A stretch of 36,232 bases of DNA, from the NCBI GenBank assembly GCA_964646505.1, contig CAZYEQ010000004.1, positions 1 through 36,232 on the forward strand, written 5' to 3'. Shown here piece after piece: positions 11,451 to 35,655 of this stretch. Under the pieces are notes generated by a model. The model was given only the letters and a program-made list of their open reading frames with translations, made no database searches and was not told the DNA's origin. The position numbers were made by a program, and so were the translations under genes. Within the stretch, counting starts at the first letter, position 1; every line of letters begins with the position of its first letter. The stretch is from an uncultured Gammaproteobacteria bacterium (lineage in GTDB: Bacteria; Patescibacteriota; Patescibacteriia; Magasanikbacterales; UBA922).

Positions 11451-11470
11451 TTATCTTTGCGTTTTCTTGT

Positions 11471-14800: not shown

Positions 14801-17800
14801 CTTGGAGTTATCCAGGATCCCCGTTTTCCTCGTACGTCCGCTGATCCACTTAATCCGCCCTATCCTTTATTTTACTATATTTGGGGTGCGCCACGAGAGG
14901 CATGTACGGTGATTAATGCCGACGGTTTAGGGTGGGTGTGGAGTGTTCCGCCTGAAGATGCGGGATATGCCAGTGTTATTCCTCGTCGTGATCCTCCACG
15001 GTATACTGATTCGCGCGCTGCTGTGACTGCCTTATCAAATTCTGTTCCAGATACTGCCCAAATTCATGCGACTGTCACTACGCCAAATAACACAACAATT
15101 CAGGCGGAAAGCACTCTAACCGTAGATTTGGGTGACCCACGAGTGGTTGGGTTTTGGCCTAACTGCAGTGAGTCGTGTACCAATGCCAATATCGGAGTTC
15201 AGTTCAATCAGAGCATGCTTCCGTCAACATATGAAGGCGCGCTTCATGTGTATCGGTGTGCAGACCCACTTTGCGCCAATCGAGTTGAAGAAGTACTCAC
15301 GACGGTAGTTGAACAAGACAATCCTTTGCGGTATCAAGTTGGAGCTGCGTCGCCACTTCTCGAGAATACATGGTATTTGGTAACGGTGTCTTCACAAATT
15401 CGAGCGATGACCGCGCTTGGGTCTACAAATCCAGGAAATCCTCTGGAACCGTTTCAGTGGCGTTTTCGAACCAAAGCCACAGCGGGTATTTGTGTGGCTG
15501 CGAGTGTGGTTGTAGAGCCTACATCGTTTACGGCGACAGCTGTTGGCCAGGTGACAAGGTACTTGTCGGTACCGGTGAGTCCAGGAGACCAATGTAGTCC
15601 TCTTGGTCAGGGGTTAAACCCATGGACGTTCGGATGGCAATGGAGCACCGAAGACGTAAACGTGGCTCGCGTGTCAAATTTTTCGAGTTTGGGAAGCCCA
15701 AGGCGTGAATGTACGCCTACGTGTGTTCCACGTGGTTCATCTTTAATTTCCGGAAGGCAATCAGGTGTTTCGGTGTGTGGTAATGGAACAGTGGACGCGG
15801 GAGAAGATTGTGATATTGCAATTTCTTCTGAAGTGCCTGGGGTAAGTTGTTCACTTTTTTGCTTGCGTCCAGGAAATAGTTCTCGCGGTACTGGGCCAAA
15901 CATGTGTGGAAACGGGGTCGTGGATACTGCGCAGGGTGAGGAGTGTGATCCGACAGGTGCAAATGCTGATACTCGTTTTTGTGATGAACGTTGTTTGCTC
16001 ATAGGAAACACTGCCCGAGGTAATGCACAAAACCAATGCGGTAATTCTGCTGTTGAGCCTTTGTTTGGTGAAGAGTGTGAGTCACGGCAAGGTGTAGAAG
16101 AGGATACCTCTTGTACGCAATCATGTGTTCGTGCTGGCAGTACTGTGCTCTCAGCAAGTTGGTGTGAACTTCGGCCAGTTGGAACAGACGCCACAACTTT
16201 ATCTGCATGCGCAACGCGCGCTGTTTCGATGTGTGGCGATGGAGTAATCAATCGTGGAGAAGTGTGTGAAATCGTAACTGGGTCGGGAACTGGCCCTGGT
16301 ACGATACGCCTGTACGGTGTACAGAATCCTGTGGCGGTTCAGGATGTGAGTGTGTGTACCAGTCAGTGTTTACTTGCGCATATTTGTAATGAAACAAATA
16401 TCCCAACTTCAGCGCCCACGTTACGCTGTGCATCTGGCGCTCCTGGGTGTACCTCACAGTGTACATTGCGAGGTGCAGACGTAACATATGAGACGCCATC
16501 ACTTTGTGGCGATGGACAGGATGGAATAGGGGAATACGGCATGTGTGAGTATAGTCCAGCAGATGTTACTGCTCGAGTTCCTGGTGTACGTACACCGATT
16601 GGTCAAAATCCTATACAAGTAGTAACTGCTGTGGGCGCATCGCAAAATATTCCAGCCGATGGACGTCAGGAGACTCGGGTGGCTGCTGATATTGTAGCGA
16701 GTTTGGCGAGTCGACTTGCGTCGCCTGTGCATGGTACAGGGGACTACGCACTGCAATGTGGTTTTGTTGAGTACCCTCCTGGCGCGCAAGTGGCTGATCA
16801 GGCGAACAACTGTCCACAGAATGCCGGAAATAATGATAATCGGTATGGGGTCGGTACAAATTCATGTTGCCAACTTCGTCCGGAGCGTACTTCAAGTTAT
16901 CCAGCGGATGGTACGGGTTTTCAGGGGACTGCTTCAGCATGCCGTAATACGCTTGTTGAGTTTGAAACAACAGGGGAACTTGATGAGGCAACTCTTGAAC
17001 GCAATATAGTTATTGCTCGTGGATATCCGGCTGGTGCTGCTACTGTGCCGTGTCGGAATACGGGCGATGATGTAACAGATGCGGTTCGCGATACGTTGGC
17101 CTACGAAGAAGTACCCCGTGGCATTATTCGAGGTACCATTTTCCGCGTTCGCCATTTTTTTAGAGCCCTCCTTGAAGGGCAGGCGTTTGCTTCGGCATTA
17201 CGACTTGATCAGGTTAATGTGGCTGATTGGTGCGGAGGTTCGACTCGGTTCATTTCTGATACGTCGTATACACGCGATGCTTCAGGTGTGGTACAAAGCA
17301 CTCGTGTGCGTCTGCAACTTCTTGACGCTCTTGAAGCAAATACAACCTATGCCGTGCTTTTGCGCGGAGGTACGACAGGTATAAAAAATGTTCGCGGTGT
17401 GAGTTTGCGCCCTGATACAACCGCCCAAAATGTTGAGGCAAGTTCGTGGGTGTTTGAGACCGGTCGTGATATTTGTCGAGTAAATGAGGTGGTGGTGGAA
17501 CCAAATACCTTTTTGTTTACAAGACCAAATACAACTGCGGAGTTTGTGGCGACAGCGCGCACGGCAGCAGGTCAACAAGTCGTGCCTATCCCAAATATCT
17601 ACAACTGGTCATGGGCTTGGGGGCCGCAAAATAACGCTGTGTTTGCGATACCTGCAAACGGTACCACTATTAACACTGACCACATGGTGATCGGTTCTCG
17701 TACTCTTGGGCAAGGGGAAAGAGTTACAGGATTTGCTCACTTACAGATTACACAAGATGTGCTTGCGACAGCCGGTACACGTTTACCGCAATTCACTGAC

Positions 17801-20800
17801 ACGTTTGATCTCACTGCGCTGTTTTGCGAAAATCCTTGGCCTAGACGCGGTATATATCCGTATGAAGATGCAGTACGTCGTGGCGCAGTTGCAAATAATG
17901 ATGAATTTGACGGTGATTGGACCGGAGGCGCTATTCCACCGATTGCGGTGAATGGAGCAACTTTCTACCCTAATATCCAGTTTGGATACTGCGCTGACGC
18001 GGGACGTTCGAATGATACGAGCGACGATCTTCCATATCTTAGACCAACCGTTTTGGGCGATGTTCGTAATGGGGCAATCGCGCCGTTCGGTGATTCTTTG
18101 CGTCGCATTCTTTTCTTTAATGATAGGAATGACGATGCGATTGGGTATCAAGTGTTCGATAACACCACACGAGTGACCCCTGTTACACCAAGCCCTGCAC
18201 CTACTCCGGCCCCAGCACTTCCTCCATTGCCAGAAACTGTCCCAGATGGACGGGCGCTGCGTTTCTTGGGTGATGCTGCTCAGGCAGGTCATGAATTTCC
18301 AATTGGTGAGCCAATCCCTCTTCTTTGGGCGGGCGGGCAAAATCCTGGTCGCGTACGTATTAGTATTTTGTTATTGAATCCCGCGGGTAATGCCTATGTA
18401 ACAAATGATCAGATTCCCAACTCGCAAGTAAGTTTGTTATCATCGATTGATAACGACGGGTCAGAGTACGTGACACTTCCTCTTGATATTGCGCATCCAA
18501 GTCCAGATAGCCGATATGAATTTTTAATTATCGAAGACGGAACCAGCGCTCAGGGGTTTAGTGCTCGTATTACACTGCGCGACCCTGCACCTTCGGTGCC
18601 TGTGCCACCACCAAGTTGGGTACCTATGGTTACCGCATATCGCACATTGACTGAATGGTATCAGGCGAAGTTTGGGGCAGTACCGTCAACGATGCGTCGT
18701 GTGACGGTACAAGGGTACGAGGCCTTAACTGACGGTAATAGTTACTACATTAGCGGCCTTAATCAGTTTGAGGAACGTGATCGTAATACTCTTGGAAATC
18801 ATGTGTATTTATTTACGATTAACCCCGACGCGCAAGAATCCACCAAACGTGTTTTTACAGCGCTTATTAATTCGCTTCGGTTCAATATCAATATTAGCGA
18901 TGTAGGGCTTTGTTCGGTTGGTGACGGGTCACGAGAAAGTGATATTTTTACACCGGACGCAGCTGGAGTAGCATGTACGGTTGATAGCGACTGCACCACT
19001 TTGGGTGAGGGTCGTATCTGCGCAAACGCACGAACTAAATTACTTCGTGATTGGACACGTCTACAAGATGTAGCGGGGGTTCAAACAGCCGCCTCAATCG
19101 TGTACGCGCGTGACCAGCGTTTCCCACTTCTTTCATCAGGTACGTATATCCCTGGGTACACGAATTCCCGCTGGCCATCGTGGGGGGCAACATTGTCGCA
19201 AGCACTTGGTGCCGCGCTTCCACGAGATCCACTGAATAGCTGGAGTGGGTGTGATGGGGCCGATCCTCAGACATGTTGGAATCCTGACGCGGCGACCGGC
19301 GGCACATTCCAATGTCCGGTAGACGCAAGTATCTATGAGTATACAGTGCGGAGTGATGGTTCAAATTATGAACTCCATGTGCCATTTGAGTATTTTCGTG
19401 GCGAAACAGGTATCGTTGATGCTCTGCTTGATACCGACCGGCTCACGACGAATCGTTTCTGCGTTGGTACTCCCCAAAGTCCGGTTGCCGGGGCGTGTGG
19501 CAATGGCATTTTGAACGCGGGTGAAGAGTGTGATCCACCTGGAACACGCGGGACATCGTTTACCGATGGTAATGGGCAACAGTGTCAACAGGGTCAACTT
19601 GCAAGCACAAGATGCGGTGATACGTGTCGTCTTGAGGTGGGACAGTGTCAACCAACCGGCCGTTGCGGTAATGGTGTGATTGAGGGTAATGAACGCTGTG
19701 ATGATGGTAGCGCGAACGGACAGTATGGACATTGCGCGACAGACTGCAACGGGCTTTCAGGGGCGTACTGTGGTGATGGACAAATAAACACCAACGCGGC
19801 CGGCGCGGCATTGGAGCGTTGTGATAAAGCCGAAGCACAATTCCAAAGTGGTTTTTGTGATAAACAGTCGTGTAAGGACGCACGTTTTGACATTCAACCA
19901 GAGTCCACAAATGGTGTGACCGGAATTATGGCCGGCACTGATTCGGTAAGTGTTCGTGGTAACCGTCTTTGGCTTGTGACCACGATCAGCCAAACACCTT
20001 CGTCCCCAATGCGCAGTCATATTTATTCTGGGGCGGTTGGCCAGCAATACACACGTGTGTTTGATGGTCCGAATTTAAATTTGTATGCTGTTTCTTTCGC
20101 TAATCAAAATGTTGGACTTGCTGCCGGAGGATTGCGCAATGGCCCCAACACTGACGGTGCTGTAGTACGTACTGTGAACGGTGGCGTTGATTGGCAAACA
20201 ATTCAAGTTCGTGGCGCCTCAACTCTTACAAGCGTCGCTATGGTTTCAGATCAGATTGCGTTTGTTCTTGACGATCAGGGTCTTATTTTTCGATCAACCG
20301 ATGGTGGCGCGACGTGGTCGAATTCAATTCAATCTATTGGCATTGCGGGGCGCAAGATTCAGTTTTTTGATGCTCAATTTGGTTGGGCTGTTGGTACAGG
20401 AAGACTTTTTATTACCCGTGACGGCGGAAATACATGGACTCAGGCAAATGTGCCTGGTGGCATTGTTCCGTATGATGTCGTATTTGCCAATCGGTATATT
20501 GGGTATGTCACCTCAGACCAAGGTACATCAATTGCTCGAACCGATGACGGTGGAAATACGTGGGAGGTCTTTGCAACTCCTTCACTTCGGCAGGGATCTT
20601 TGAGTGCTCGAGGAAAGATTGCGATTGTTGACCAGCAAACAGTGGTGTTGTGGGCCGGTGCAACCTACCCAGGAAACGTTATTGGGTATGCCCTTCTAAC
20701 AACAAATAATGGTGGTCAAACATGGTCGGAAATAAGTACCGCAAATAATCAGATTGGTGGCGGCGGCCCCATTGTTCGTGCTGACACTGCTGTCGTGGCT

Positions 20801-22804
20801 ATATTTCGTACGCCAACAAGTAGACTTGTGCTTACACCCGACAACTACTGTGTGTCACAAACACTGTGTACACAAAATACCCAGTGTGAAAATGGAGATG
20901 CGTGTGTCTTAGATGCGCTTCCGACGTACCATGGGCAACAAGGAGGAAGTTGTTCGTTCGATTGTCAGAATGTTGGTGGGTACTGTGGAGATGGTATTGT
21001 GAATGCAATACACGAAGAGTGTGATGATGGAAACACGAATAATGCTGATTCGTGTACCAATTTGTGTTTTCGACGCACAGCTATTACACCTGTAACTCCA
21101 ACAGGAAGTTACTGTGGTGATGGGGTGGTTCAAACACCAAACAGTCAGGGGGTAAACGAGACGTGTGATAATGGTGTAAATAATGGTGTTGTTCCGCAAA
21201 ATACACCCTATGGTCAACGTATTGTGTACTGTTCCGCGCGCTGCACAGAGGAAACAAGAGACCCAGTGGCGTTTTGTGGGAACGGTATTGTTGAGGGGCC
21301 AGAAGTATGTGACGCCGACCCATCGAGTGGCGCGGTTTTTGGACGCGGTGGAGCCCAACTGGCGTGCGCGGGCGGAAATCTTTCTGTGGCAAATAGAGGG
21401 TCGTATCGCTGTGTGGATAATTGCCGTCGAATTGACAGTACATGTACAGTGTGCGGTGTGGTAGAAGTGTGTAGCGCAAATAGGGCTGAGTGTCTATTGA
21501 ATGGAACAGGAAATCAGTGTCAGGATCATTTATGTGCGAATGGTCTAGGGCAACGCGTGGCGTGCAACCAGGGCCAACAGAGTGATTGTCGGTATGTAGG
21601 CACAACGGATGGTGGTATTTGTAATGATGGTATTGATAATGACGGTGACGGCCTTACGGACTGTGCTGACTTTACAGGTGGTGGCGCAAACCCACAGATT
21701 GCGATTTTAAACCCAATCGTATCGAGGTTACGGACTGGTTCTGAGGCGTGGGGTATCGTAAATGATGTGTCCATGGTTCGTGGTGGTCTCGATGCGCCAT
21801 ATCGTGCTGTGGGTCCATTAAATAATCGACAATATATATATGAAGGAGCAATGGGTGGTCGCCTCCTGGCCGCAACAGCAAATTATTCATTCGGGCTTCC
21901 AGCGACTTCAGTTTTTTCAGTTAATTCCAATCAACTTAATACAAGATTAAACATTAATACAAATCCACAGTGTGTAGATGTGTATAGTTTGGATGTTAAT
22001 CACATGGCCATTCCACAAACGTTGTTACAGCCACCAATCAGCCCAAGAGTTGCGGGTCCAGGCAGTTTATTTCCGTATCCTGTTGATGGTCAGGCCGGTA
22101 CTATGAGCTACGAGTATGTGCTCAGTCCCGCGGTACCGCAAAATGTATTCCGTGTCGTGGTGCGTTGGGGTGAAGATGAGGCACAAGCGCAAGCAGAATT
22201 TTTAGGAAATCTCTACCACAATGACTTTCCTCAGAACGGTGGGCGTATTGTGAATTTGGCTATTGCGCAGGCACGTACGGTGCAAGAGAGTGTTAACTAT
22301 GTTTGTGACAACATTGGTGAACAGCAACTCGCTATCGGTGGTGGGCAAACTGCCAATTATTGGTGGAGCATTGATTGTTCGTCAATAGCAAGTACAGATG
22401 CTAGCGCCCCTGCCGAAGTGTATGTGCATCCAAATTTATCGCTATCAAAAACATTTATTCAATCCATGACGATTGATCTGCGTAATGCAAATTCAATTGC
22501 GCCATTCCAGTTCTTTATTGATGATACTACGCGTCCTATGTATGAGTATCGAAATAATCAGAATTTTACAGTCGAGGTGTATGAATATCATAATGGTCAG
22601 AATCCGCTTCGTTCTGTTTACCTACCACGAGTGTTCCGTATCAGTGGCACTGTTGGAACAAGTTCAAATCCAAACGCGCAATACTGGCATGTATTTAATA
22701 TCGTACGGAATCCGGGAAATGGAAGATATGAGATTCGGGCTCTTGGTCCATCGGGCGATGGGAGTCTTGAGACAGACATTGAAGATATTCACAATAACTT
22801 ATAA
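11471..22804 (+). CDS. Giant multidomain surface protein (3,777 aa) with a TrbC/VirB2-like head
   Basis: One uninterrupted ORF. ATG at 11471 (MSRIALYIRRHLL...) lies 20 nt after the upstream stop. The ORF-track start at 11291 overlaps the previous gene. Signal peptide ends TFA-QG, followed by the two-helix head. Then come SbsA-type Ig-like domains, four IPT/TIG-like domains, 11 CGNG/CGDG...ECD cysteine repeats in three clusters, a Pro-rich linker, a five-blade Asp-box region, a CNDGIDNDGDGLTDC motif, and a motif-free C-terminus of about 370 aa. Confidence 0.9.
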   Translation: MSRIALYIRRHLLHFIFFFFFLLVGGFVFYAHPTFAQGTNDVLGVNSFEGASNLASTDIRVIVARIINIFLGLLSLLAVGIVIYGGVTWMTAGGDEGKIEDARKILVNGAIGLVIVLSAFAISRFVLNRLQGATGLAGGDPLASCADLALANDPRYDELCGRNSGGSLDCSANPSWCCARDNFIVQSMTPRTDGTNMNNATIRVVFSRGLRTGANQVVEIWRNGVTTTNDFSFRFADPANQVLEGVYTGTSACEETPGCLPQGEYRVRVNDGIRDVRGQTLQESVSCGTFPREATFGVNTPGAIDIFPPDIPGGIMIDGVRAADAPIPVNREVEIRIPVTDNTGAGYVRLDVGREGQSTAITAVGGPSVVRGSDAGVVDPYVYTYRLFLASNTRLGERYVISARAYDIDGNNVAVSATFVTVAPHCANGIQDEDETDVDAGPSCQSVGACAENWQCVSGQCVSGQCQATPIITSVDPWDGAAGSWVTVNGRFFGTTPGQVQFGVDRNNDGVIAGAEWANASLAACNGISPWSDSTVIAEVPDDAVLPQTSLSAIRVVRADNTALTDTTIDARGPRGGPRNGLFLKNTTERPRLCRVEVGAGQTAGLPQTDARAIGESLQGGTRELRFGPVVANILGGTDTRIDTRVPEGLRPGVVSVAATINGVVSNAVPFTILSPNSNDVPNISGIDPAETTPGSYVTISGRGFDGRLGVVYLANALDLVCTPSNLPAGCVEARATLPPACGDTWTPTQVVFQVPTTIQPGRWFVNVRTAHGLSSPLVNTAAVTVVAGNPRPSLCNMSPERGPAPRTIADGITLRGANLSSASIVYFWTARANAADVSTWLTARAPDVRFTSASELLSVIPSIGGVTMQTGPIRVSSNGQLSNSLTYTVLDCRTIPDEEIPAGQRCCSDGSLLATNQACPGESRDAGYVWRFTNGQISQLPAVIEECDVTGASSAMPSPSPSDIWGRTQTCVNAEIRARFTTPMDESTLVSPNVRVVTCGDGVSPDCTGRVDVTDSFLIRYESQSLRVAPRSAATALTANTWYRVELSTSIRSQESRTILGRPQTVSNALQATRPCGAGTAYCFTFQTGTRRCEIATAHILPPEYTTTILGVIQDPRFPRTSADPLNPPYPLFYYIWGAPREACTVINADGLGWVWSVPPEDAGYASVIPRRDPPRYTDSRAAVTALSNSVPDTAQIHATVTTPNNTTIQAESTLTVDLGDPRVVGFWPNCSESCTNANIGVQFNQSMLPSTYEGALHVYRCADPLCANRVEEVLTTVVEQDNPLRYQVGAASPLLENTWYLVTVSSQIRAMTALGSTNPGNPLEPFQWRFRTKATAGICVAASVVVEPTSFTATAVGQVTRYLSVPVSPGDQCSPLGQGLNPWTFGWQWSTEDVNVARVSNFSSLGSPRRECTPTCVPRGSSLISGRQSGVSVCGNGTVDAGEDCDIAISSEVPGVSCSLFCLRPGNSSRGTGPNMCGNGVVDTAQGEECDPTGANADTRFCDERCLLIGNTARGNAQNQCGNSAVEPLFGEECESRQGVEEDTSCTQSCVRAGSTVLSASWCELRPVGTDATTLSACATRAVSMCGDGVINRGEVCEIVTGSGTGPGTIRLYGVQNPVAVQDVSVCTSQCLLAHICNETNIPTSAPTLRCASGAPGCTSQCTLRGADVTYETPSLCGDGQDGIGEYGMCEYSPADVTARVPGVRTPIGQNPIQVVTAVGASQNIPADGRQETRVAADIVASLASRLASPVHGTGDYALQCGFVEYPPGAQVADQANNCPQNAGNNDNRYGVGTNSCCQLRPERTSSYPADGTGFQGTASACRNTLVEFETTGELDEATLERNIVIARGYPAGAATVPCRNTGDDVTDAVRDTLAYEEVPRGIIRGTIFRVRHFFRALLEGQAFASALRLDQVNVADWCGGSTRFISDTSYTRDASGVVQSTRVRLQLLDALEANTTYAVLLRGGTTGIKNVRGVSLRPDTTAQNVEASSWVFETGRDICRVNEVVVEPNTFLFTRPNTTAEFVATARTAAGQQVVPIPNIYNWSWAWGPQNNAVFAIPANGTTINTDHMVIGSRTLGQGERVTGFAHLQITQDVLATAGTRLPQFTDTFDLTALFCENPWPRRGIYPYEDAVRRGAVANNDEFDGDWTGGAIPPIAVNGATFYPNIQFGYCADAGRSNDTSDDLPYLRPTVLGDVRNGAIAPFGDSLRRILFFNDRNDDAIGYQVFDNTTRVTPVTPSPAPTPAPALPPLPETVPDGRALRFLGDAAQAGHEFPIGEPIPLLWAGGQNPGRVRISILLLNPAGNAYVTNDQIPNSQVSLLSSIDNDGSEYVTLPLDIAHPSPDSRYEFLIIEDGTSAQGFSARITLRDPAPSVPVPPPSWVPMVTAYRTLTEWYQAKFGAVPSTMRRVTVQGYEALTDGNSYYISGLNQFEERDRNTLGNHVYLFTINPDAQESTKRVFTALINSLRFNINISDVGLCSVGDGSRESDIFTPDAAGVACTVDSDCTTLGEGRICANARTKLLRDWTRLQDVAGVQTAASIVYARDQRFPLLSSGTYIPGYTNSRWPSWGATLSQALGAALPRDPLNSWSGCDGADPQTCWNPDAATGGTFQCPVDASIYEYTVRSDGSNYELHVPFEYFRGETGIVDALLDTDRLTTNRFCVGTPQSPVAGACGNGILNAGEECDPPGTRGTSFTDGNGQQCQQGQLASTRCGDTCRLEVGQCQPTGRCGNGVIEGNERCDDGSANGQYGHCATDCNGLSGAYCGDGQINTNAAGAALERCDKAEAQFQSGFCDKQSCKDARFDIQPESTNGVTGIMAGTDSVSVRGNRLWLVTTISQTPSSPMRSHIYSGAVGQQYTRVFDGPNLNLYAVSFANQNVGLAAGGLRNGPNTDGAVVRTVNGGVDWQTIQVRGASTLTSVAMVSDQIAFVLDDQGLIFRSTDGGATWSNSIQSIGIAGRKIQFFDAQFGWAVGTGRLFITRDGGNTWTQANVPGGIVPYDVVFANRYIGYVTSDQGTSIARTDDGGNTWEVFATPSLRQGSLSARGKIAIVDQQTVVLWAGATYPGNVIGYALLTTNNGGQTWSEISTANNQIGGGGPIVRADTAVVAIFRTPTSRLVLTPDNYCVSQTLCTQNTQCENGDACVLDALPTYHGQQGGSCSFDCQNVGGYCGDGIVNAIHEECDDGNTNNADSCTNLCFRRTAITPVTPTGSYCGDGVVQTPNSQGVNETCDNGVNNGVVPQNTPYGQRIVYCSARCTEETRDPVAFCGNGIVEGPEVCDADPSSGAVFGRGGAQLACAGGNLSVANRGSYRCVDNCRRIDSTCTVCGVVEVCSANRAECLLNGTGNQCQDHLCANGLGQRVACNQGQQSDCRYVGTTDGGICNDGIDNDGDGLTDCADFTGGGANPQIAILNPIVSRLRTGSEAWGIVNDVSMVRGGLDAPYRAVGPLNNRQYIYEGAMGGRLLAATANYSFGLPATSVFSVNSNQLNTRLNINTNPQCVDVYSLDVNHMAIPQTLLQPPISPRVAGPGSLFPYPVDGQAGTMSYEYVLSPAVPQNVFRVVVRWGEDEAQAQAEFLGNLYHNDFPQNGGRIVNLAIAQARTVQESVNYVCDNIGEQQLAIGGGQTANYWWSIDCSSIASTDASAPAEVYVHPNLSLSKTFIQSMTIDLRNANSIAPFQFFIDDTTRPMYEYRNNQNFTVEVYEYHNGQNPLRSVYLPRVFRISGTVGTSSNPNAQYWHVFNIVRNPGNGRYEIRALGPSGDGSLETDIEDIHNNL
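12871..14145 (+). repeat. Four tandem IPT/TIG-like Ig-fold domains (protein-level repeats)
   Basis: Repeat starts are ITSVDPWDGAAGSWVTVNGRFFG, LCRVEVGAGQ..., ISGIDPAETTPGSYVTISGRGFDG and LCNMSPERGPAPRTIADGITLRGANL. Each unit ends in a ...SN(A/S)(V/L)(P/T)(F/Y)T(I/V)L-type strand. Confidence 0.6.
15770..16555 (+). repeat. Cysteine-rich repeat cluster 1 (5 units of C-G-(N/D)-(G/S)-x(5-10)-E-C-(D/E))
   Basis: CGNGTVDAGEDCD, CGNGVVDTAQGEECD, CGNSAVEPLFGEECE, CGDGVINRGEVCE, CGDGQDGIGEYGMCE. These resemble the Myxococcus cysteine-rich repeat (DUF4215-type). Confidence 0.65.
19490..19870 (+). repeat. Cysteine-rich repeat cluster 2 (3 units)
   Basis: CGNGILNAGEECD, CGNGVIEGNERCDDGSANGQYGHC, CGDGQINTNAAGAALERCD. 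Confidence 0.65.
20170..20730 (+). repeat. Five BNR/Asp-box-like repeats (probable beta-propeller)
   Basis: TVNGGVDWQT, STDGGATWSN, TRDGGNTWTQ, TDDGGNTWEV and TNNGGQTWSE, spaced roughly 40-60 aa apart. Confidence 0.65.
20980..21330 (+). repeat. Cysteine-rich repeat cluster 3 (3 units)
   Basis: CGDGIVNAIHEECDDGNTNNADSC, CGDGVVQTPNSQGVNETCDNGVNNG, CGNGIVEGPEVCD. Confidence 0.65.
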
Positions 22805-22848: not shown

Positions 22849-23256
22849 ATGCAAAAAAGCTGGGTTCGCATTGTGCTTGGAGTGATCACGATAACTCTTA
22901 TCGGTGGGGGACTGTTTTTTATCACGCAACAGCCACAAAAAAAAACGTCAGAAATACTCCCATCGTCTACATCAACTTCGACGGAGGAGCGGCCTAATCC
23001 TGAGCCAATGCCAAATCCAAACCCTTTTCCAGGTGATGATGATAGGGATGGACTCACGAATGCAGAAGAAACGCAGCTGGGTACCAATCCACACAACTTC
23101 GATACTGACAATGATTCACTGTCTGACGTTACTGAAGTACAAGTGATTCACACTGATCCAAAAAAAGCAGATACCGACGGTGATGGGTTTCACGACGGCA
23201 TAGAAGTTCTCCATGGGTATAATCCTTTAGGAAAGGGAACGTTATCTAAACCTTAG
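22849..23256 (+). CDS. Small N-terminally anchored protein with TSP type-3-like calcium-binding repeats (135 aa)
   Basis: TM helix WVRIVLGVITITLIGGGLFFI and a Pro/Asn-rich linker. Then DDDRDGLTNAEE...DTDNDSLSDVTE...DTDGDGFHDGIEVLHGYNPLGKG. Confidence 0.75.
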   Translation: MQKSWVRIVLGVITITLIGGGLFFITQQPQKKTSEILPSSTSTSTEERPNPEPMPNPNPFPGDDDRDGLTNAEETQLGTNPHNFDTDNDSLSDVTEVQVIHTDPKKADTDGDGFHDGIEVLHGYNPLGKGTLSKP

Positions 23257-23267
23257 ATATATTGCGT

Positions 23268-24101
23268 ATGTTCGATAATCAACTTACCGGAACAACAGGA
23301 AAAGGTCAGGCACCCAGCAACTTACCTATGGGTGAGCCCGAAGATATGTTTTCTTCCGTTACTGGTGACGAGGTGGGTGGTTCAGAAGAACAACCTTCGG
23401 CACTCGAGGCGGGGGTTTTGAAACCAAAGTCCCAGCCTATACCAGCACAAGCGGATGCGCACACAGACAATACGGAGCCAGTAGACTCTTCTGATTTTGA
23501 AGTCATGGCAAAAGTGCCACGTGAACAGGTGCGTCGTGTTGTTCCCTCGCCAGCCGCTGCTGCTCCTGCCGCATACCCTGAGTATCGTATTCAAGAGCCA
23601 TCTATCATTAAAAGCGTCTTTTTGGTTATTCTGGTTATTTTGGTTGTTGCGGGTGTTGGTTTCGGCGGGTGGTGGGCATATGGTGCTTATATCGCACCTC
23701 GCCTCGATAATTCAGGCGCAGCACCAATATCTTCCTCCGAAGAGACCAATAATCTCCCTTCGCCTACGGTTTCTCCTTCGTCTGAGCTAACTGAAGATAT
23801 TGATCATGATAGTAATCCGGCCGATGACGCAATTTTATTTGGCTCCGTGCCCGATACAGACGGTGATGGCCTCGATGATCTGAAAGAGAAAGAATTGGGA
23901 ATAGATCCTACCCGCTTCGATACCGATGGTGACGGACTTTCTGATTATGACGAAGTGGTATCGTGGAAAAGTGATCCACAAAATCCTGACACGGACGGTG
24001 ATGGGTATACGGATGAAGAAGAGATTAAAAATGGGTATAGCCCGACAGGTCCAGGTCGTATTTTTGAGCCACCAACACCGTCGCCCGCGATAAGTCCATA
24101 G
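23268..24101 (+). CDS. Bitopic membrane protein with TSP type-3-like repeats (277 aa from ATG 23268; a TTG at 23262 is also possible)
   Basis: Acidic/Pro-rich N-terminal region of about 115 aa. TM helix VFLVILVILVVAGVGFGGWWAYGAY. Then DTDGDGLDDLKE...DTDGDGLSDYDE...DTDGDGYTDEEEIKNGYSPTGPG. Confidence 0.75.
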   Translation: MFDNQLTGTTGKGQAPSNLPMGEPEDMFSSVTGDEVGGSEEQPSALEAGVLKPKSQPIPAQADAHTDNTEPVDSSDFEVMAKVPREQVRRVVPSPAAAAPAAYPEYRIQEPSIIKSVFLVILVILVVAGVGFGGWWAYGAYIAPRLDNSGAAPISSSEETNNLPSPTVSPSSELTEDIDHDSNPADDAILFGSVPDTDGDGLDDLKEKELGIDPTRFDTDGDGLSDYDEVVSWKSDPQNPDTDGDGYTDEEEIKNGYSPTGPGRIFEPPTPSPAISP

Positions 24102-24113: not shown

Positions 24114-25325
24114 ATGGCCTTTAGGTTATTCAAAAAAAATTCAAAAGAAAGACCGCCTGAGGCTCCTGTGTTAGCAAGGGTAACAGTCATTCCTGATTCG
24201 TTTTACGGCGGAGCAAATCCAGTCGTGTATGCACATGAAGCACCGTCACACGCTGACCATTCTTCGGTGGCGCCAAAAATGATTCCTGTGGGTCAGGTAA
24301 CCCCGCCGACTCCGCAAAAACCAGTAGTGTCGCGCCGTGCTGACATGAAAGCGGCTATGGACACCACAGAAGACAAAAAAAACGATCAGGAATCAAAACA
24401 GCGTGAGAGCGACATGCTTGATATTCCTAAAGAAGGCACGTCTCGTCCGGTATTTATGTGGGCTGGAGTTGGCATCACACTCATTGTTTTAGTTGGTATT
24501 TCATATTGGTATGTGACACGTTCACTCCAAACGACCAACCGGCCGCTCTCACCACTACCACCAAGTTTTGAAGCGATACCGCAGCCGCAAATACGTCCGG
24601 TCGAGCCACCACCGGCACAAGTTGTGGCGCAAGTGCCGACTACTTCTATTTCTGAAGTGCCCACCTCTACGCGCCAAACATTACCTACTTTGTCACCGCT
24701 TAGTCTTTTGCCGGACGATGCAGATATTGACAATGACGGGCTTACGGATACCGAAGAAGATGTGCTTCAAACCGACAGTGGCACCTGGGATACAGACGGA
24801 GACGGATATTATGACGGTCAAGAAGTCATGAACCTCTATAATCCAACCGGCTTCGCGCCAGTAAAAATTATTGACTCAGGTCGTGTGCTCGAGTATACGC
24901 AGCCGCTTCATTCGTGGAAGATCTATTACCCAACTCCATGGGATGTTGGCACGGTAGAAGACTCTGTTCCCCATGTTCTGTTTAGCGCGGTAACAGGTGA
25001 TTATATTGAGGTTATTGAGTCAGAAAAACTCCCTGGTGAGACATTTGAATTGTGGTTTGCTCGTGTGTTGCAAAATCAACGGTTCAGCGATCTTCTCAAA
25101 AAAACCAATCGTTTCATGATTCCGTACTATATTCGACAAGATGGGCTAGTTGGGTATGTGGAAGACATGAATCGGGTGTATGTTGTGGCGTATCATCAAG
25201 GATCCGCAAATGTTGTGTTGTATCGTCATATTTTTGATATGATGATGCAAAGTTTTCGCCTTGGGGGGTCGGCTATTTCCACTCCGGATCAACCTCGCAT
25301 ACCAGTCACGCCAAGTGCGACATAA
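24114..25325 (+). CDS. Bitopic membrane protein with TSP type-3-like repeats and a C-terminal globular domain of about 150 aa (403 aa)
   Basis: TM helix VFMWAGVGITLIVLVGISYWYV and a Pro-rich linker. Then DIDNDGLTDTEED...DTDGDGYYDGQEVMNLYNPTGFAP, followed by an unassigned domain (LEYTQPLHSWKIYYPTPWDV...MMQSFRLGG). Confidence 0.75.
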   Translation: MAFRLFKKNSKERPPEAPVLARVTVIPDSFYGGANPVVYAHEAPSHADHSSVAPKMIPVGQVTPPTPQKPVVSRRADMKAAMDTTEDKKNDQESKQRESDMLDIPKEGTSRPVFMWAGVGITLIVLVGISYWYVTRSLQTTNRPLSPLPPSFEAIPQPQIRPVEPPPAQVVAQVPTTSISEVPTSTRQTLPTLSPLSLLPDDADIDNDGLTDTEEDVLQTDSGTWDTDGDGYYDGQEVMNLYNPTGFAPVKIIDSGRVLEYTQPLHSWKIYYPTPWDVGTVEDSVPHVLFSAVTGDYIEVIESEKLPGETFELWFARVLQNQRFSDLLKKTNRFMIPYYIRQDGLVGYVEDMNRVYVVAYHQGSANVVLYRHIFDMMMQSFRLGGSAISTPDQPRIPVTPSAT

Positions 25326-31274: not shown

Positions 31275-34200
31275 ATGTCATCATCTGTTGAAAAATCAAA
31301 CGCACTTGTGTTGCCTTTTCGTGACATCACCATCGACGACGTACCACTCGTTGGTGGAAAAAACGCCTCACTCGGTGAAATGTACGCAAAGCTCACTGCC
31401 GAAGGCGTGCGTGTTCCGAATGGCTTTGCTGTTACAGCGAATGCGTATTGGTTATTTCTCAAAGAAACAGGGCTTGATAAAAAAATTAAACAAGCTATTA
31501 AAGGACTTGATGTTACGAACGTACGCCAGCTCGCTCGGGTTGGTAAAACCGTGCGTACGCTTATTTTAAAACAAACATTACCAAAAGAGGTTGAGAAAGC
31601 AGTACGTCAGGCATACGCGGCTTTGGCGAAAGAATACAAAGAACCACGCCTTTCGGTCGCCGTTCGTTCTTCTGCAACAGCTGAAGATTTACCCGGCGCC
31701 AGTTTTGCTGGACAACAAGAAACATATCTCAATATTCGTGGAGAAAAAGATCTTCTGCTTGCGGTAAAAAAATGCGTTGCCTCACTGTTTACTGATCGAG
31801 CTTTGTCGTACCGTGAAGCTCAAGGGTTTGATCATTTGCAAGTGGCACTTTCGGTTGGGGTGCAGAAAATGGTGCGTTCTGATATTGGCGCGTCGGGTGT
31901 GATGTTTACGATTGACACTGAATCTGGTTTTCCGGGTGTCGTGCTTATTAACGCGGCCTACGGCCTTGGTGAATATGTAGTAAAAGGCCGTGTTACTCCC
32001 GACCAGTATTATGTGTTTAAAGAAGGGGTGTCTCAGGGAAAAAGTGCCATTATTAGCCGAACGCTTGGCACAAAAGATGCAAAACTTGTGTACGCGAAAG
32101 GTGGCTCAGGGACAAAACAAGCTGCAACTACAAAAACAGAACGAAATAGTTTTGTGCTGAAAGATGCTGATGTTATCGCGCTTGCCAAATGGGGGATGAG
32201 AATTGAAAAGCACTATGGTCGCGCGCAAGATATTGAATGGGCAAAAGATGGAGATTCCGGACAACTCTTTATTGTACAGGCACGTCCGGAAACCGTGAAA
32301 GCAAAATCAGACACGCTCGTCTTGGAATCATATGAACTCAAACAAAAAGGAGAGATTTTACTGCGTGGGGTGTCTGTTGGACAAAAAATTGGTGCCGGTC
32401 ATGTGCGCGTGATTGAGCATCCGTCACAAATGAAATCGTTTCAAAAAGGTGAGGTGCTGGTAACGCGTATTACCGACCCCGACTGGGAGCCCATTATGCG
32501 CATGGCCTCGGCTATTATTACGGAAGAAGGTGGTAAAACGTCGCATGCGGCCATTGTAAGTCGTGAACTTGGCGTGCCGGCGATCGTAGGCGCGCGTGGG
32601 GCGAGAAAAGTGCTTAAAACAAGTCGTCCTATTACCGTGTCGTGTGCTGAGGGTGACGAGGGTATTATATATGCCGGCGTTCTTCCCTATGAGGTGAAAA
32701 AAACCGATGTGAAACCAGGCGTGCAAACGAAAACAAAAATCATGATGAATGTAGGTGATCCTGATAACGCGTTTACGCTTCGACGTTTGCCAAGTGATGG
32801 AGTGGGTCTTGCTCGTGAAGAATTTATTTTCACTAACTTCATTCGCATTCATCCTCTTGCGCTTGTGCACTATGAAAAGTTGCAAGATAAAGAAGCAAAA
32901 AAACAAATTGCCGAAATAACGCGGGGGTATAAAAAGAAAACCGATTATTGCGTTGATAAACTTGCCGAAGGTATTGGTCGTATCGCGGCAGCGTTCTACC
33001 CGAACGACGTGATTATTCGGTTTAGTGATTTTAAAACAAATGAGTACGCGACACTTTTAGGTGGAAAAGAGTTTGAGCCAAAAGAAGAAAACCCTATGAT
33101 TGGGTGGCGTGGCGCAAGCCGCTATTATTCGCCTGAATACAAGCCAGGGTTTGCGCTTGAGTGTGAGGCAATAAAAAAAGTGCGTAATGAGTGGGGACTT
33201 ACCAATGTGATTACCATGGTTCCTTTTTGTTGCACCCCTGAAGAGGGAGAAAAGGTGCTTCAGACCATGGGAGAGTTTGGGTTGAAGCGGGGAGAAAATG
33301 GATTGCAGGTGTATGTGATGTGTGAGATTCCCTCAAACGTTATTTTGGCCGAGGATTTCGCGCGTATTTTTGATGGCTTTAGTATTGGTTCAAACGATTT
33401 AACCCAACTCACTCTTGGGGTCGATCGCGATTCCGCGCTGGTGAGTCATGTGTACAACGAGCGCAACGAAGCGGTGAAAAAATTAATTCGAGAAGTGATT
33501 CGCGTAGCAAAGAAAAACAAAAAGAAAATTGGCATTTGCGGTCAGGCACCGAGCGACTATCCTGAGTTTGCTGAGTTTTTAGTGCGTGAAGGAATTGACA
33601 GTATTTCCCTTAACCCAGACACGATTGTAAAAACACGTGAACGGATAGCGTATGTCGAAAAAACGCTTGGGAAAACCGGGCACAAAACAAATCCAACATT
33701 TTTAGGTGCGGTTGCCATGGTGGGGCTTTTAGCAGCGGCCATGATCGGGCTCGGGGCTGGCTGTGCCGATCCAAACCTAGCAAATGATATGCCACAAGTA
33801 ATAGATGTGTCGCCAGCGATGATTCGCGAAAAAATTGCTGCTAAAGAAGCGAAGCAAGACGAGGTAGACGATGCTACGGGCACGCTTGGTAAAGATCCTG
33901 TACAAGTAAAGGTGTCTACGTTCGCGCAATTTTCATTTTCGCACCCGCGTGGGTGGCAGGTAGAATATTGGCCCGGAGGTATGACCATGCGAGACACAAA
34001 AACAAAACAGTTTGTGAGTGTGTTTAAACAGCTTGTCGCGCACCCCGCCAAAGGCGACGCGGTGACAAAACTGACTGTGGGTGGGTACAACGCCGTGCGG
34101 TACAGCGATACGTCTCCAAAAGATGGCACGCCGTATCATATTGTTGAGATTGATCTTCCTAACATGTTTCTCGAAATTAACGCGACGGCGCCACAACTCG

Positions 34201-34397
34201 ACGCCATTCTTGAAACCATGCAATTCTTGAAAGAAAGTGAAACATCGATTAGTCAGTGGGATATTCGTGAAAAACGCACCTGTGTGCAAATTGCGACATA
34301 TGCCAAACCAAGGAGTGGTGGCACGTGCAAGCTCTATCCTACCCCGTGTGATGTGCCAAGTGGGTACGAGGTGTGTACGTCAAAAGATGCGTCCTAA
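31275..34397 (+). CDS. ppsA: Phosphoenolpyruvate synthase (pyruvate, water dikinase) with an in-frame lipoprotein-like C-terminal extension of about 240 aa (1040 aa)
   Basis: VPLVGGKNASLGEMY, the phosphohistidine loop GGKTSHAAIVSRELGVPAIVG, and GSNDLTQLTLGVDRDS...SISLNPDT. The PpsA core ends near aa 795-800. It is followed by AVAMVGLLAAAMIGLGAGC (hydrophobic helix plus lipobox-like LGAGC) and a Cys-containing tail. Confidence 0.9.
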   Translation: MSSSVEKSNALVLPFRDITIDDVPLVGGKNASLGEMYAKLTAEGVRVPNGFAVTANAYWLFLKETGLDKKIKQAIKGLDVTNVRQLARVGKTVRTLILKQTLPKEVEKAVRQAYAALAKEYKEPRLSVAVRSSATAEDLPGASFAGQQETYLNIRGEKDLLLAVKKCVASLFTDRALSYREAQGFDHLQVALSVGVQKMVRSDIGASGVMFTIDTESGFPGVVLINAAYGLGEYVVKGRVTPDQYYVFKEGVSQGKSAIISRTLGTKDAKLVYAKGGSGTKQAATTKTERNSFVLKDADVIALAKWGMRIEKHYGRAQDIEWAKDGDSGQLFIVQARPETVKAKSDTLVLESYELKQKGEILLRGVSVGQKIGAGHVRVIEHPSQMKSFQKGEVLVTRITDPDWEPIMRMASAIITEEGGKTSHAAIVSRELGVPAIVGARGARKVLKTSRPITVSCAEGDEGIIYAGVLPYEVKKTDVKPGVQTKTKIMMNVGDPDNAFTLRRLPSDGVGLAREEFIFTNFIRIHPLALVHYEKLQDKEAKKQIAEITRGYKKKTDYCVDKLAEGIGRIAAAFYPNDVIIRFSDFKTNEYATLLGGKEFEPKEENPMIGWRGASRYYSPEYKPGFALECEAIKKVRNEWGLTNVITMVPFCCTPEEGEKVLQTMGEFGLKRGENGLQVYVMCEIPSNVILAEDFARIFDGFSIGSNDLTQLTLGVDRDSALVSHVYNERNEAVKKLIREVIRVAKKNKKKIGICGQAPSDYPEFAEFLVREGIDSISLNPDTIVKTRERIAYVEKTLGKTGHKTNPTFLGAVAMVGLLAAAMIGLGAGCADPNLANDMPQVIDVSPAMIREKIAAKEAKQDEVDDATGTLGKDPVQVKVSTFAQFSFSHPRGWQVEYWPGGMTMRDTKTKQFVSVFKQLVAHPAKGDAVTKLTVGGYNAVRYSDTSPKDGTPYHIVEIDLPNMFLEINATAPQLDAILETMQFLKESETSISQWDIREKRTCVQIATYAKPRSGGTCKLYPTPCDVPSGYEVCTSKDAS

Positions 34398-34419
34398 GAT
34401 CCCTTACCGAGGGGTCTTT

Positions 34420-35651: not shown

Positions 35652-35655
35652 ATAT

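What the first reader, a model, noticed from the sequence alone, without database searches (positions are those of the whole stretch)
33651..34397. PEP synthase fused in frame to a lipoprotein-type signal peptide and an exported-looking domain
As I recall, canonical PpsA proteins are about 790-800 aa and end shortly after the LNPD motif. Here the ORF continues for about 240 more residues. The extension contains a hydrophobic helix and a lipobox-like LGAGC (Cys codon at 33762-33764). It then carries a tail with paired cysteines near its end (CVQIATYAKPRSGGTCKLYPTPCDVPSGYEVC). A cytoplasmic dikinase joined to a lipoprotein precursor is topologically contradictory. An out-of-frame ATG at 33652 reads MSKKRLGKPG...., a typical signal-peptide n-region. 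It sits beside A-runs (GAAAAAAC at 33657-33664) and stops at the TAG at 33703. A 1-nt indel in this stretch would therefore give a separate, perfectly ordinary lipoprotein gene (MSKKRLGK...LLAAAMIGLGAGC). So this is either an assembly indel that merged two genes, a recent natural fusion, or a frameshift-dependent arrangement.
Basis: partly seen in the sequence, partly recalled or inferred. Interest (0 to 1): 0.6.

Follow-up and report, generated by a model that had tools for sequence, protein, structure and literature searches.

The report
Membrane-tethered PEP synthase with lipoprotein tail
This is a genuine, long-conserved gene fusion in a group of tiny candidate-phyla bacteria, in which the central-metabolism enzyme PEP synthase runs straight into a lipoprotein-type membrane signal and a cell-surface domain; it is not an assembly error.

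Summary
ORF 31275..34397 (1040 aa) is a complete, catalytically intact PEP synthase (aa 1-798). It continues in frame into a basic n-region, one hydrophobic helix, an LGAGC lipobox (Cys830) and a 210-aa tail ending in four cysteines.

The indel and frameshift readings are refuted. Contigs from two other samples, one from another study, match the junction exactly. The continuous ~980-1160-aa frame recurs across two families of the same order, with 789-800-aa canonical PpsA in a third. The out-of-frame ATG is a by-product of Tyr-Val codons and is not conserved.

The tail is a PsbP_2-like domain plus a Cys module that recurs in other surface proteins. The genome has Lgt and signal peptidase II, and its ordinary lipoproteins use the same GAGC box.

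Best reading: an internal signal-anchor tethers PpsA to the inner face of the membrane and exports the tail. Lipidation and cleavage at Cys830 are likely but not shown.

Some relatives keep only PpsA plus the helix. Others keep the tail while the enzyme has lost its catalytic residues. My literature searches found no description.

The parts
31275..34397 (+). Whole fused ORF, 1040 aa plus stop
   Evidence: The same continuous frame is found in relatives.
31275..33668 (+). PEP synthase (pyruvate, water dikinase) moiety, aa 1-798. It has PPDK_N, the PEP-utilizers mobile domain and PEP-utilizers_C, the GGKTSHAA motif (aa 419-426) and the GICGQ motif (aa 753-757).
   Evidence: Pfam: 419.2, 87.4 and 212.3 bits; TIGR01418 1162.6 bits against cut-off 739.75; 2ols_A E 7e-266; motif positions. 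That these two motifs carry the phospho-histidine and the catalytic cysteine is recalled knowledge of the family.
33669..33698 (+). Basic n-region GKTGHKTNPT (aa 799-808), predicted to stay in the cytoplasm
   Evidence: a K/R-rich stretch is kept in the 16 f1-type tails of alignment A1, while the two f4 tails have a different basic stretch; aa 795-808 hold 3 K/R against 1 D/E, while the 40 residues after Cys830 hold 4 K/R against 9 D/E.
33699..33761 (+). Hydrophobic h-region / transmembrane helix FLGAVAMVGLLAAAMIGLGAG (aa 809-829)
   Evidence: the only hydrophobic peak in the protein; kept in relatives.
33762..33764 (+). Cys830 of the lipobox-like LGAGC, the candidate site for Lgt lipidation and SPase II cleavage
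   Evidence: It is invariant in 18 of 18 aligned tails and present in 36 of 39 long representatives. Four ordinary N-terminal lipoproteins of this genome carry the same GAGC box. Lgt and SPase II genes are present.
33765..33911 (+). Acidic linker (aa 831-879) with the conserved SPAxIRE stretch
   Evidence: (alignment).
33912..34235 (+). PsbP_2-like domain (about aa 880-987), with the FxF..YP..W start and the LEING...F end
   Evidence: hhalign of A1 against stand-alone relatives gives 99.5% probability, E 1e-22. Three of those relatives pass Pfam PF18933 (27.9-33.3 bits, cut-off 27). The Atlas model of relative P0136 matches PsbP_2/PsbP clusters at TM 0.49-0.55. The window's own tail gets no direct Pfam hit.
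34254..34376 (+). C-terminal Cys module (aa 994-1034), with four Cys at 1003, 1018, 1025 and 1034
   Evidence: The module recurs singly or in tandem in other secreted or surface proteins (P0030 5 stretches, P0036 6, plus P0049 and P0071). It has no Pfam or NCBIfam family.

Best explanation
The ORF is one real gene, fixed long ago in one order of Patescibacteria (CPR). The closest named relatives are Candidatus Magasanikbacteria MAGs. It encodes a complete PEP synthase whose C-terminus continues into a full lipoprotein-type signal (basic n-region, hydrophobic h-region, lipobox GAGC) and a ~210-aa extracytoplasmic module made of a PsbP_2-like domain and a disulfide-type Cys module.

Shown: the sequence is correct, the fusion is conserved, the enzyme part is canonical, and the tail is homologous to membrane-anchored surface proteins.

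Inferred: the internal signal acts as an N-in/C-out signal-anchor when it leaves the ribosome. PpsA then sits on the cytoplasmic face of the membrane and the tail is translocated outside.

Inferred, at about even to 60% odds: Lgt then lipidates Cys830 and signal peptidase II cuts before it. That would leave a tail-anchored PpsA (aa 1-829) and a separate surface lipoprotein (aa 830-1040).

The functions under selection appear to be membrane tethering of PpsA and display of the tail. Some lineages keep only PpsA plus the helix, and others keep the tail while the enzyme part decays.
For: Sequence is correct: contigs from another sample (X2) and another study (X6) cover 33604-34066 with 0 differences and 0 gaps.

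Conservation: the tail was found in 21 of 24 other genomes of family f1, and wherever the contig is not cut short it lies inside a 977-1163-aa frame. Five further 1039-1052-aa proteins carry all three PpsA Pfam domains. In the order survey, 108 of 151 genomes have PpsA. The frames are about 980-1095 aa in f1, mostly 957-1028 aa in f4 and 789-800 aa in f8. In a phylum sample, 9 of 401 genomes have the tail at E<=1e-10, and 8 of the 9 are in f1 or f4.

Enzyme intact: TIGR01418 scores 1162.6 bits against a cut-off of 739.75, and both catalytic motifs are present.

The signal looks genuine. There is a single hydrophobic peak and the charge bias is positive on the inside. The Cys is invariant in 18 of 18 tails and present in 36 of 39 long representatives. 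The genome's own lipoproteins read LIGAGC, LTGAGC, VIGAGC and LVGAGC. Lgt (PF01790, 122 bits) and SPase II (PF01252, 70 bits) are present.

The tail looks extracytoplasmic: it has four conserved Cys, is homologous to N-terminally anchored PsbP_2 + Cys-module proteins, and its module is shared with large surface proteins that carry PKD and Ig-like domains.

Tethering is selected. Of 7 short f4 forms, 5 keep the n-region and helix but have no exo-domain and no Cys at the helix end.

The tail is selected on its own. In degenerate forms the tail is 38-40% identical to the window's while the PpsA-like part is only 16-33% identical.
Against: There is no protein-level evidence for insertion, lipidation or cleavage.

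The signal lies 800 residues from the N-terminus, and I know of no natural Lgt/Lsp substrate like that; my searches found none.

Three representatives (P0012-P0014) keep the tail but have no Cys at the helix end, so the tail can be anchored without lipidation.

The f4 fusions read GGYTC, GYGC or GYSC, whereas an ordinary f4 lipoprotein reads VGLGC. A Thr at -1 is not a classical lipobox residue (recalled).

Lgt and LspA score below NCBIfam's equivalog cut-offs (74 against 118.9 bits; 40.4 against 73.95 bits), although both pass Pfam.

The window's own tail has no direct Pfam or NCBIfam hit. PDB sequence hits to PsbP are not significant (E 0.3-1.1). No structure model could be made.
Confidence: 0.85

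Rival explanations
1. Uncleaved receptor-like enzyme. The protein stays in one piece as a bitopic membrane protein. The external PsbP-like domain senses or binds something outside, such as a wall, host-surface or solute cue, and controls the cytoplasmic PpsA dimer, or a pseudo-enzyme scaffold in derived lineages. The conserved Cys may or may not be lipidated.
For: The topology matches that of bitopic signalling enzymes. The Atlas model of the tail's stand-alone relative P0136 matches the PsbP_2 part of a cluster of Ser/Thr protein kinases (Pkinase 100%, PsbP 62%; TM 0.54 by query), and the next row is a cluster of FHA-domain proteins at the same TM, where no family is named for the aligned part. 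P0012-P0014 keep the tail with no Cys and so must stay joined. The catalytically dead PpsA-like parts are still kept at full length: 26 of 39 representatives lack His at the phospho-His column. That fits a scaffold or signalling role linked to the tail.
Against: The near-invariant Cys at the exact end of the helix, in the same GAGC context as the genome's true lipoproteins, is best explained by Lgt/Lsp recognition. The short f4 forms lose the Cys together with the exo-domain, which ties the Cys to the tail rather than to signalling. No ligand, partner or conserved neighbour is known; downstream genes differ between genera.
Confidence: 0.35
2. Neutral read-through fusion. An ancestral ppsA and a downstream lipoprotein gene lost the stop between them. 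SPase II still separates the products, so the fusion has no functional meaning beyond co-expression.
For: All parts of an ordinary lipoprotein precursor are kept. One 250-aa stand-alone-looking form, P0010 (MAHEDKYKKTNKKYL…LGAGC), exists on a 1058-nt contig.
Against: No stand-alone homologue was found in 0 of 5 f8 genomes, which have canonical PpsA, using profile A1. That call had no positive control of its own. The helix is kept after the tail is lost in 5 of 7 short forms. Dead PpsA-like parts are kept at 660-790 aligned residues in ~1-Mb genomes. Both observations argue that the joined state itself is used. The context of P0010 could not be seen (one search failed).
Confidence: 0.15
3. Assembly or sequencing indel in the A-run 33657-33664 merged two ordinary genes. 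A variant of this is a frameshift-dependent or internally initiated separate lipoprotein.
For: An out-of-frame ATG at 33652 gives MSKKRLGKPGTKQIQHF next to an A-run.
Against: Contigs from other runs are identical. The frame is continuous in more than 100 genomes of two families. The ATG is not conserved: it occurs in 3 of 12 junctions, is followed directly by a stop in 2 of them, and is absent in the same-genus relative. There is no in-frame start codon between the PpsA end and the helix.
Confidence: 0.01

Closest known systems
Canonical bacterial PEP synthase PpsA (pyruvate, water dikinase; TIGR01418 / NF005057; solved example 2ols_A, 794 aa)
   Same: It has the same three domains in the same order, scores over the equivalog cut-off along the full length, and keeps both the His and the Cys motif.
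   Different: Canonical PpsA is a soluble protein of ~790-800 aa that ends about 10 residues after the last aligned position. That is also true in family f8 of the same order (789-800 aa). Here 242 more residues add a membrane signal and an external module.
Archaeal multimeric PEP synthases with a C-terminal extension (PDB 9dae_A 846 aa, 8a8e_A 817 aa; 24 chains per entry)
   Same: They are PpsA proteins with extra residues after the PEP-binding domain.
   Different: Their extension is short and soluble. That it forms an oligomerisation helix is recalled, not tested here. The extension in the window is a transmembrane helix plus an exported domain.
Bacterial lipoprotein precursors (Lgt / signal peptidase II pathway)
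   Same: The window's signal has a basic n-region, a hydrophobic h-region and a G-A-G-C box identical to those of four N-terminal lipoproteins of the same genome, and the genome has Lgt and SPase II genes.
   Different: The signal begins at residue 799 instead of at the N-terminus. It is the only such case in this genome.
Bitopic enzymes with a cytoplasmic catalytic domain, one helix and an external sensor domain, for example Ser/Thr kinases with external PsbP or PASTA domains
   Same: The topology is N-in catalytic domain, single helix, C-out domain. PsbP-type external domains occur in a kinase cluster.
   Different: The cytoplasmic part here is a central-metabolism dikinase rather than a signalling kinase, and the helix ends in a lipobox.
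PsbP_2 (PF18933) / PsbP family proteins
   Same: The tail is homologous to stand-alone CPR proteins that pass PF18933, by profile-profile comparison. The Atlas gives structure matches for one of them.
   Different: The window's tail itself does not reach any Pfam threshold, and it carries an extra four-Cys module.

Membership tests
PEP synthase (TIGR01418 / NF005057 equivalogs) | Full-length score over the curated cut-off | tested here: met
   1162.6 bits against 739.75, covering aa 11-796 on model positions 1-784. NF005057 scores 1193.2 bits against 598.
PEP synthase (TIGR01418 / NF005057 equivalogs) | Three domains: PPDK_N, PEP-utilizers mobile domain, PEP-utilizers_C | tested here: met
   All three are over the Pfam gathering scores.
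PEP synthase (TIGR01418 / NF005057 equivalogs) | Phospho-histidine motif and catalytic cysteine motif present (the roles of these residues are recalled) | tested here: met
   GGKTSHAA at aa 419-426 and GICGQ at aa 753-757. The same columns are kept in canonical relatives and lost in degenerate ones.
PEP synthase (TIGR01418 / NF005057 equivalogs) | Enzyme activity (pyruvate + ATP + H2O giving PEP + AMP + Pi) | not testable with these tools
Bacterial lipoprotein precursor (Lgt/Lsp substrate) | Basic n-region followed by a hydrophobic h-region | tested here: met
Bacterial lipoprotein precursor (Lgt/Lsp substrate) | Lipobox ending in an invariant Cys, of the kind used by the organism | tested here: met
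   LGAGC, with the Cys in 18 of 18 tails. The genome's own lipoproteins use I/T/V-GAGC.
Bacterial lipoprotein precursor (Lgt/Lsp substrate) | Signal located at the N-terminus of the precursor | tested here: not met
   The signal starts at residue 799 of 1040. For that reason I do not file the whole protein as an ordinary lipoprotein.
Bacterial lipoprotein precursor (Lgt/Lsp substrate) | Lgt and signal peptidase II encoded in the genome | tested here: met
   PF01790 at 122.4 bits and PF01252 at 70 bits, both over the Pfam cut-offs. Both are below the NCBIfam equivalog cut-offs.
Bacterial lipoprotein precursor (Lgt/Lsp substrate) | Diacylglyceryl modification and cleavage before the Cys | not testable with these tools
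   This needs labelling, globomycin treatment or mass spectrometry.
PsbP_2 (PF18933) | Score over Pfam's gathering threshold | tested here: not met
   The window's tail matches 0 families at E<=0.1 and at E<=0.01.
PsbP_2 (PF18933) | Homology to proteins that are members | tested here: met
   hhalign of A1 against A3 gives 99.5%, E 1e-22. P0116, P0131 and P0136 score 27.9-33.3 bits against a cut-off of 27. 7 of 52 members of A2 match at E<=0.01.
PsbP_2 (PF18933) | PsbP-type fold | tested here: inconclusive
   No model of the window's tail could be made. The Atlas model of relative P0136 gives TM 0.49-0.55 to PsbP clusters. PDB sequence hits to 2xb3_A have E 0.3-1.1.

The most novel reading that the evidence does not exclude
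A lipoprotein signal peptide placed 800 residues inside a protein is used by Sec, Lgt and signal peptidase II. One gene would then give two membrane-bound products: a tail-anchored PEP synthase on the inside and a PsbP-like surface lipoprotein on the outside. That would be a natural bacterial 'polyprotein' cut by SPase II. The pairing would be functionally coupled, linking the pyruvate/PEP node to the cell surface of an episymbiotic CPR bacterium. In sister lineages the enzyme half has become a catalytically dead scaffold while the surface half is kept.
Probability: 0.4. Interest if true: 0.8.

Novelty: new variant of a known kind. Interest (0 to 1): 0.62.

Why it matters
PEP synthase is treated as a soluble cytoplasmic enzyme. 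Here a whole order of ultra-small bacteria tethers it to the membrane, usually together with an exported surface module.

If the internal lipobox is used, it widens the accepted rules for Lgt/SPase II substrates. It would also expose a blind spot in annotation, since signal-peptide and lipoprotein predictors look only at N-termini.

The family offers a natural series for asking why a central metabolic enzyme is placed at the membrane in organisms that live attached to hosts. The series runs from canonical enzyme plus tail, through enzyme plus helix only, to dead enzyme plus tail.

In practice, such long PpsA calls in CPR genomes should not be 'corrected' as frameshifts or chimeras.

Tried and rejected
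Assembly indel: rejected.

Conserved +1 start or programmed frameshift: rejected.

Internal in-frame start for a separate lipoprotein: rejected. There is no ATG, GTG or TTG between aa 782 and Met815, which lies inside the helix. The residue before EKT varies among f1 relatives.

Other internal lipoprotein signals in this genome: a scan found none besides this ORF. The other 15 listed hits lie near the start of their open frames or look spurious.

Conserved downstream partner: none. GH1 follows the gene only in the window and in the same-genus relative, 2 of 8 loci looked at.

Stand-alone tail homologue in family f8: 0 of 5 genomes with profile A1. That call had no positive control of its own, so this is weak.

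Direct family assignment of the tail: Pfam and NCBIfam gave nothing, and PDB sequence searches gave only non-significant PsbP hits.

RNA: a metatranscriptome run (X11) holds two contigs identical to 33300-33461 and 33974-34155. Neither bridges the junction, and DNA carry-over cannot be excluded, so I draw no conclusion on transcription. X3 and X11 mostly carry diverged relatives of the PpsA part.

Literature: full-text searches gave 0 papers for 'Magasanikbacteria' + 'phosphoenolpyruvate synthase', 0 for 'internal lipobox' + 'lipoprotein' and 0 for 'Candidate Phyla Radiation' + 'PsbP' + 'lipoprotein'. 'lipobox' + 'polyprotein' + 'signal peptidase II' gave 1 unrelated paper, seen as listing and abstract start only. 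'phosphoenolpyruvate synthase' + 'transmembrane' + 'Patescibacteria' gave 2 papers, listing only. ('PsbP-like', 'lipoprotein', 'Gram-positive', 'extracytoplasmic'; at least 3 of 4 terms) and one search returned listings in which no title or abstract start described such a fusion. I read no paper in full and saw no supplements. 'Not described' therefore rests on these searches only.

dN/dS between the window and the same-genus relative was considered and dropped, because the tail is only 66% identical and synonymous sites would be saturated.


Full report
OBSERVATION. The ORF at 31275..34397 (+) encodes 1040 residues. Residues 1-798 are a complete PEP synthase. Pfam finds PPDK_N, the mobile domain and PEP-utilizers_C. 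TIGR01418 scores 1162.6 bits against a cut-off of 739.75, covering aa 11-796 on model positions 1-784, and NF005057 reaches aa 798. The solved 794-aa PpsA 2ols_A aligns to aa 12-788. GGKTSHAA (aa 419-426) and GICGQ (aa 753-757) are present.

The frame then continues for 242 residues:
- a basic stretch GKTGHKTNPT (aa 799-808);
- the only hydrophobic segment in the protein (aa 809-829; mean hydropathy over 19 residues 2.22, next separate peak 1.18);
- Cys830 in LGAGC (codon 33762-33764);
- an acidic linker;
- a domain that starts FAQFSFSHPRGW;
- a C-terminal stretch with Cys at 1003, 1018, 1025 and 1034.

IS IT AN ARTEFACT? No. Logan contigs of other public runs were laid on 33300-34500. One contig from another sample of the same study (X2, 33612-34066) and one from a different study (X6, 33604-33824) cover the junction with 0 differences and 0 gaps.

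The tail was also searched six-frame in 40 relatives. It was found in 21 of 24 other genomes of the same family (f1) and in none of 16 genomes from the nine other families at E<=0.001. Wherever the contig is not cut short, the tail lies inside an open frame of 977-1163 aa. A protein search gave five more 1039-1052-aa proteins with all three PpsA domains. Two of them are named by their sources as Candidatus Magasanikbacteria PEP synthase.

The out-of-frame ATG is a side effect of Tyr-Val codons (TAT GTN). It occurs at that place in 3 of 12 junctions and is followed directly by a stop in two of those. The same-genus relative reads TTT GTC instead. No in-frame start codon lies between the end of the PpsA domain and the helix. 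The indel, frameshift and internal-start readings are all rejected.

HOW WIDE AND HOW OLD. A search with the PpsA model in 151 genomes of the order found PpsA in 108 at E<=1e-150, and 101 of those were over the family cut-off. The open frames fall into three groups:
- Family f1: about 980-1095 aa. One search also shows frames of 977 and 1163 aa.
- Family f4: mostly 957-1028 aa, but 813-866 aa in 12 genomes.
- Family f8: 789-800 aa, the canonical length.

The f4 tails have a helix ending in GGYTC and a homologous domain, but lack the four-Cys module.

I looked at 7 of the short f4 forms. Five consist of PpsA, a basic stretch, a hydrophobic helix and 8-35 further residues, with no Cys at the end of the helix. 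One runs off its contig inside the helix, and one (G100) has no helix at all.

In an even sample of 401 genomes of the phylum, the tail profile matched 9 genomes at E<=1e-10. Eight of them are in f1 or f4, and the ninth matches only the Cys module in a 112-aa frame. The fusion is therefore old and restricted to this order. It has been trimmed back to 'PpsA plus helix' in some genera.

THE SIGNAL. In an alignment of 18 tails, whose identity to the window's falls as low as 16%, the only invariant columns are the lipobox Cys and one Trp.

A crude scan of the window's genome for N-terminal lipoprotein signals found four convincing lipoproteins with the same box: LIGAGC, LTGAGC, VIGAGC and LVGAGC. 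A solute-binding protein has SGLGC. The PpsA fusion is the only open frame in the genome with such a signal far from its start.

The genome encodes an Lgt (PF01790, 122.4 bits) and a signal peptidase II (PF01252, 70 bits). Both fall below NCBIfam's equivalog cut-offs.

The charge distribution fits N-in/C-out: 3 K/R against 1 D/E before the helix, and 4 against 9 in the 40 residues after the Cys. A helix that follows a large cytoplasmic domain and exports what comes after it is the ordinary arrangement of bitopic membrane proteins (established knowledge). There is no topological contradiction.

THE TAIL. A profile of the 18 tails was run against 1.84 billion representatives. It matched 956 proteins at E<=0.001, 136 at E<=1e-10 and 37 at E<=1e-30. 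The hits fall into three kinds:
1. PpsA or PpsA-like fusions.
2. Small proteins with an N-terminal membrane helix, a domain beginning WxTYxNxxYGFxFKYPxxW, and one copy of the Cys module.
3. Larger secreted or surface proteins that carry the Cys module alone. It is often repeated, for example in 5 stretches in P0030 and 6 in P0036, and sits beside PKD and Ig-like domains in P0049.

Three of the small proteins pass Pfam PsbP_2 (27.9-33.3 bits against a cut-off of 27). Profile-profile comparison of the tails with nine such proteins gives 99.5% probability, E 1e-22, across both the domain and the Cys module.

The ESM Atlas model of one of them (P0136) matches PsbP_2/PsbP clusters at TM 0.49-0.55. 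One of these is a cluster of Ser/Thr kinases that carry a PsbP domain.

The window's own tail reaches no Pfam or NCBIfam threshold. PDB sequence hits to PsbP (2xb3_A) are not significant (E 0.3-1.1). No structure could be predicted because the tool was off. I therefore call the domain PsbP_2-like by homology and leave the fold unconfirmed. The Cys module has no family in the libraries I searched.

AN UNEXPECTED SERIES. I aligned the 39 long PpsA-type representatives. Seven long surface proteins that matched only through the Cys module were left out: P0049, P0065, P0071, P0083, P0103, P0121 and P0130. The counts at the key columns are:
- 36 of 39 keep the Cys at the helix end. P0012-P0014 do not.
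- 13 of 39 have His at the phospho-histidine column.
- 12 of 39 have Cys at the catalytic-cysteine column.
- 9 of 39 have both catalytic residues.

NCBIfam scores for seven of eight such forms tested fall to 260-670 bits, and one (P0012) has no hit at E<=1e-20.

In canonical relatives the enzyme part is 66-72% identical to the window's and the tail 29-37%. In the most degenerate forms the order is reversed, with the enzyme part at 16-33% and the tail at 38-40%.

Two cautions apply. The library holds one protein per 50%-identity cluster, so fast-evolving forms are over-counted. Columns in very diverged regions are also uncertain. Among species genomes the canonical score is the rule, in 101 of 151. 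The window's own protein is canonical.

MECHANISM. Shown: the gene is real, the fusion is conserved, the enzyme part is intact, and the signal has every sequence feature of this organism's lipoprotein signals. The tail is related to membrane-anchored and surface proteins and has conserved cysteines of the kind expected outside the cell.

Inferred: when the helix emerges from the ribosome it is inserted N-in/C-out. PpsA then ends up on the inner face of the membrane and the tail outside.

Inferred with about even to 60% odds: Lgt lipidates Cys830 and signal peptidase II cuts before it. This would give a tail-anchored PpsA and a free lipoprotein. In favour of this step:
- The Cys is almost invariant wherever a tail is present.
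- The Cys is lost together with the tail in the short forms.
- 'PpsA plus helix', which is what cleavage would leave, exists as a natural end state.

Against this step:
- Three forms keep the tail without the Cys.
- The f4 box has a Thr at -1, while an ordinary f4 lipoprotein has VGLGC.
- My searches found no precedent for such an internal substrate.

The main rival is an uncleaved receptor-like enzyme. The kinase-PsbP architecture seen and the retention of dead enzyme parts support it.

What the tether is for is not known. No phosphotransferase-system enzyme I was detected: the PpsA model search, which would also pick up its PEP-utilizer domains, gave one match in this genome. Downstream neighbours are not conserved beyond the genus. 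Upstream lies pyruvate kinase, which catalyses the opposing reaction, and before it ftsA, ftsZ and nrdR.

COMPARISON AND NOVELTY. The enzyme part is a member of the PpsA equivalog family. The whole protein is not an ordinary lipoprotein precursor, because the defining N-terminal position of the signal is not met, but it probably works like one. Known C-terminal extensions of PpsA, in the archaeal 24-chain entries 9dae and 8a8e, are short and soluble. My seven literature searches found no description of a membrane-anchored or lipobox-bearing PpsA. Only listings were seen, so the claim is limited to those searches. I rate it a new variant of a known kind.

VERDICT. This is a real and conserved fusion. 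The artefact and frameshift options are wrong. Interest is moderate to high, because the architecture is unexpected for this enzyme, the internal lipobox can be tested directly, and the canonical / helix-only / dead-enzyme series was not anticipated.

Noticed in passing
window 34254-34376; proteins P0030, P0036, P0049, P0065, P0071: The ~35-40-aa module C.QVITYA.NP.TGEC..FPTPCDVP.GW recurs singly or in tandem (5-6 stretches) in many secreted or surface proteins, beside PKD and Ig-like domains. It matches no Pfam or NCBIfam family; only weak chance-level MbtH hits appear. It looks like an undescribed extracellular repeat.
   Followed up: partly
proteins P0008-P0155; genomes G019, G006, G023: Many fused relatives have a PpsA-like part that has lost the phospho-His and catalytic Cys columns, while the lipobox and the tail are kept. 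In several the tail is better conserved than the enzyme part. G019 has only such a form: its single match scores 718.6 bits, and the motif reads SISGN in place of GICGQ.
   Followed up: partly
relatives, e.g. G011:C1:158-17123, G020:C17:31417-37918, G014:C32: There are tandem arrays of ~450-530-aa open frames, each matching only the PEP-utilizers mobile (phospho-His) domain of PpsA, up to a dozen in a row. Separate ~320-350-aa PPDK_N-only frames also occur. The window's own genome showed only the one PpsA match.
   Followed up: no
window 11291-25325: A giant 3837-aa ORF (11291..22804) is followed by three ORFs with bacterial TSP3 repeats: 22849..23256 and 23262..24101 over the Pfam cut-off, and 24114..25325 just under it (24.7 bits against 25). 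This is probably a surface-protein cluster.
   Followed up: no
window 25328-31235: The gene order is ybeY, diacylglycerol kinase, ftsA, ftsZ, nrdR and pyruvate kinase, directly upstream of the fused ppsA. Pyruvate kinase and PEP synthase, which catalyse opposing reactions, are adjacent and on the same strand.
   Followed up: no
protein P0010 (250 aa, on one 1058-nt contig): This is a stand-alone-looking copy of the signal plus tail, starting MAHEDKYKKTNKKYL and carrying LGAGC. It may be a natural split form or a gene call on a fragment. Its context could not be fetched.
   Followed up: partly
window 35685-36232: At the end of the window, long ORFs overlap in several frames on both strands. GC here is only slightly raised (0.494 for 35001-36000). 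The region was not examined further.
   Followed up: no
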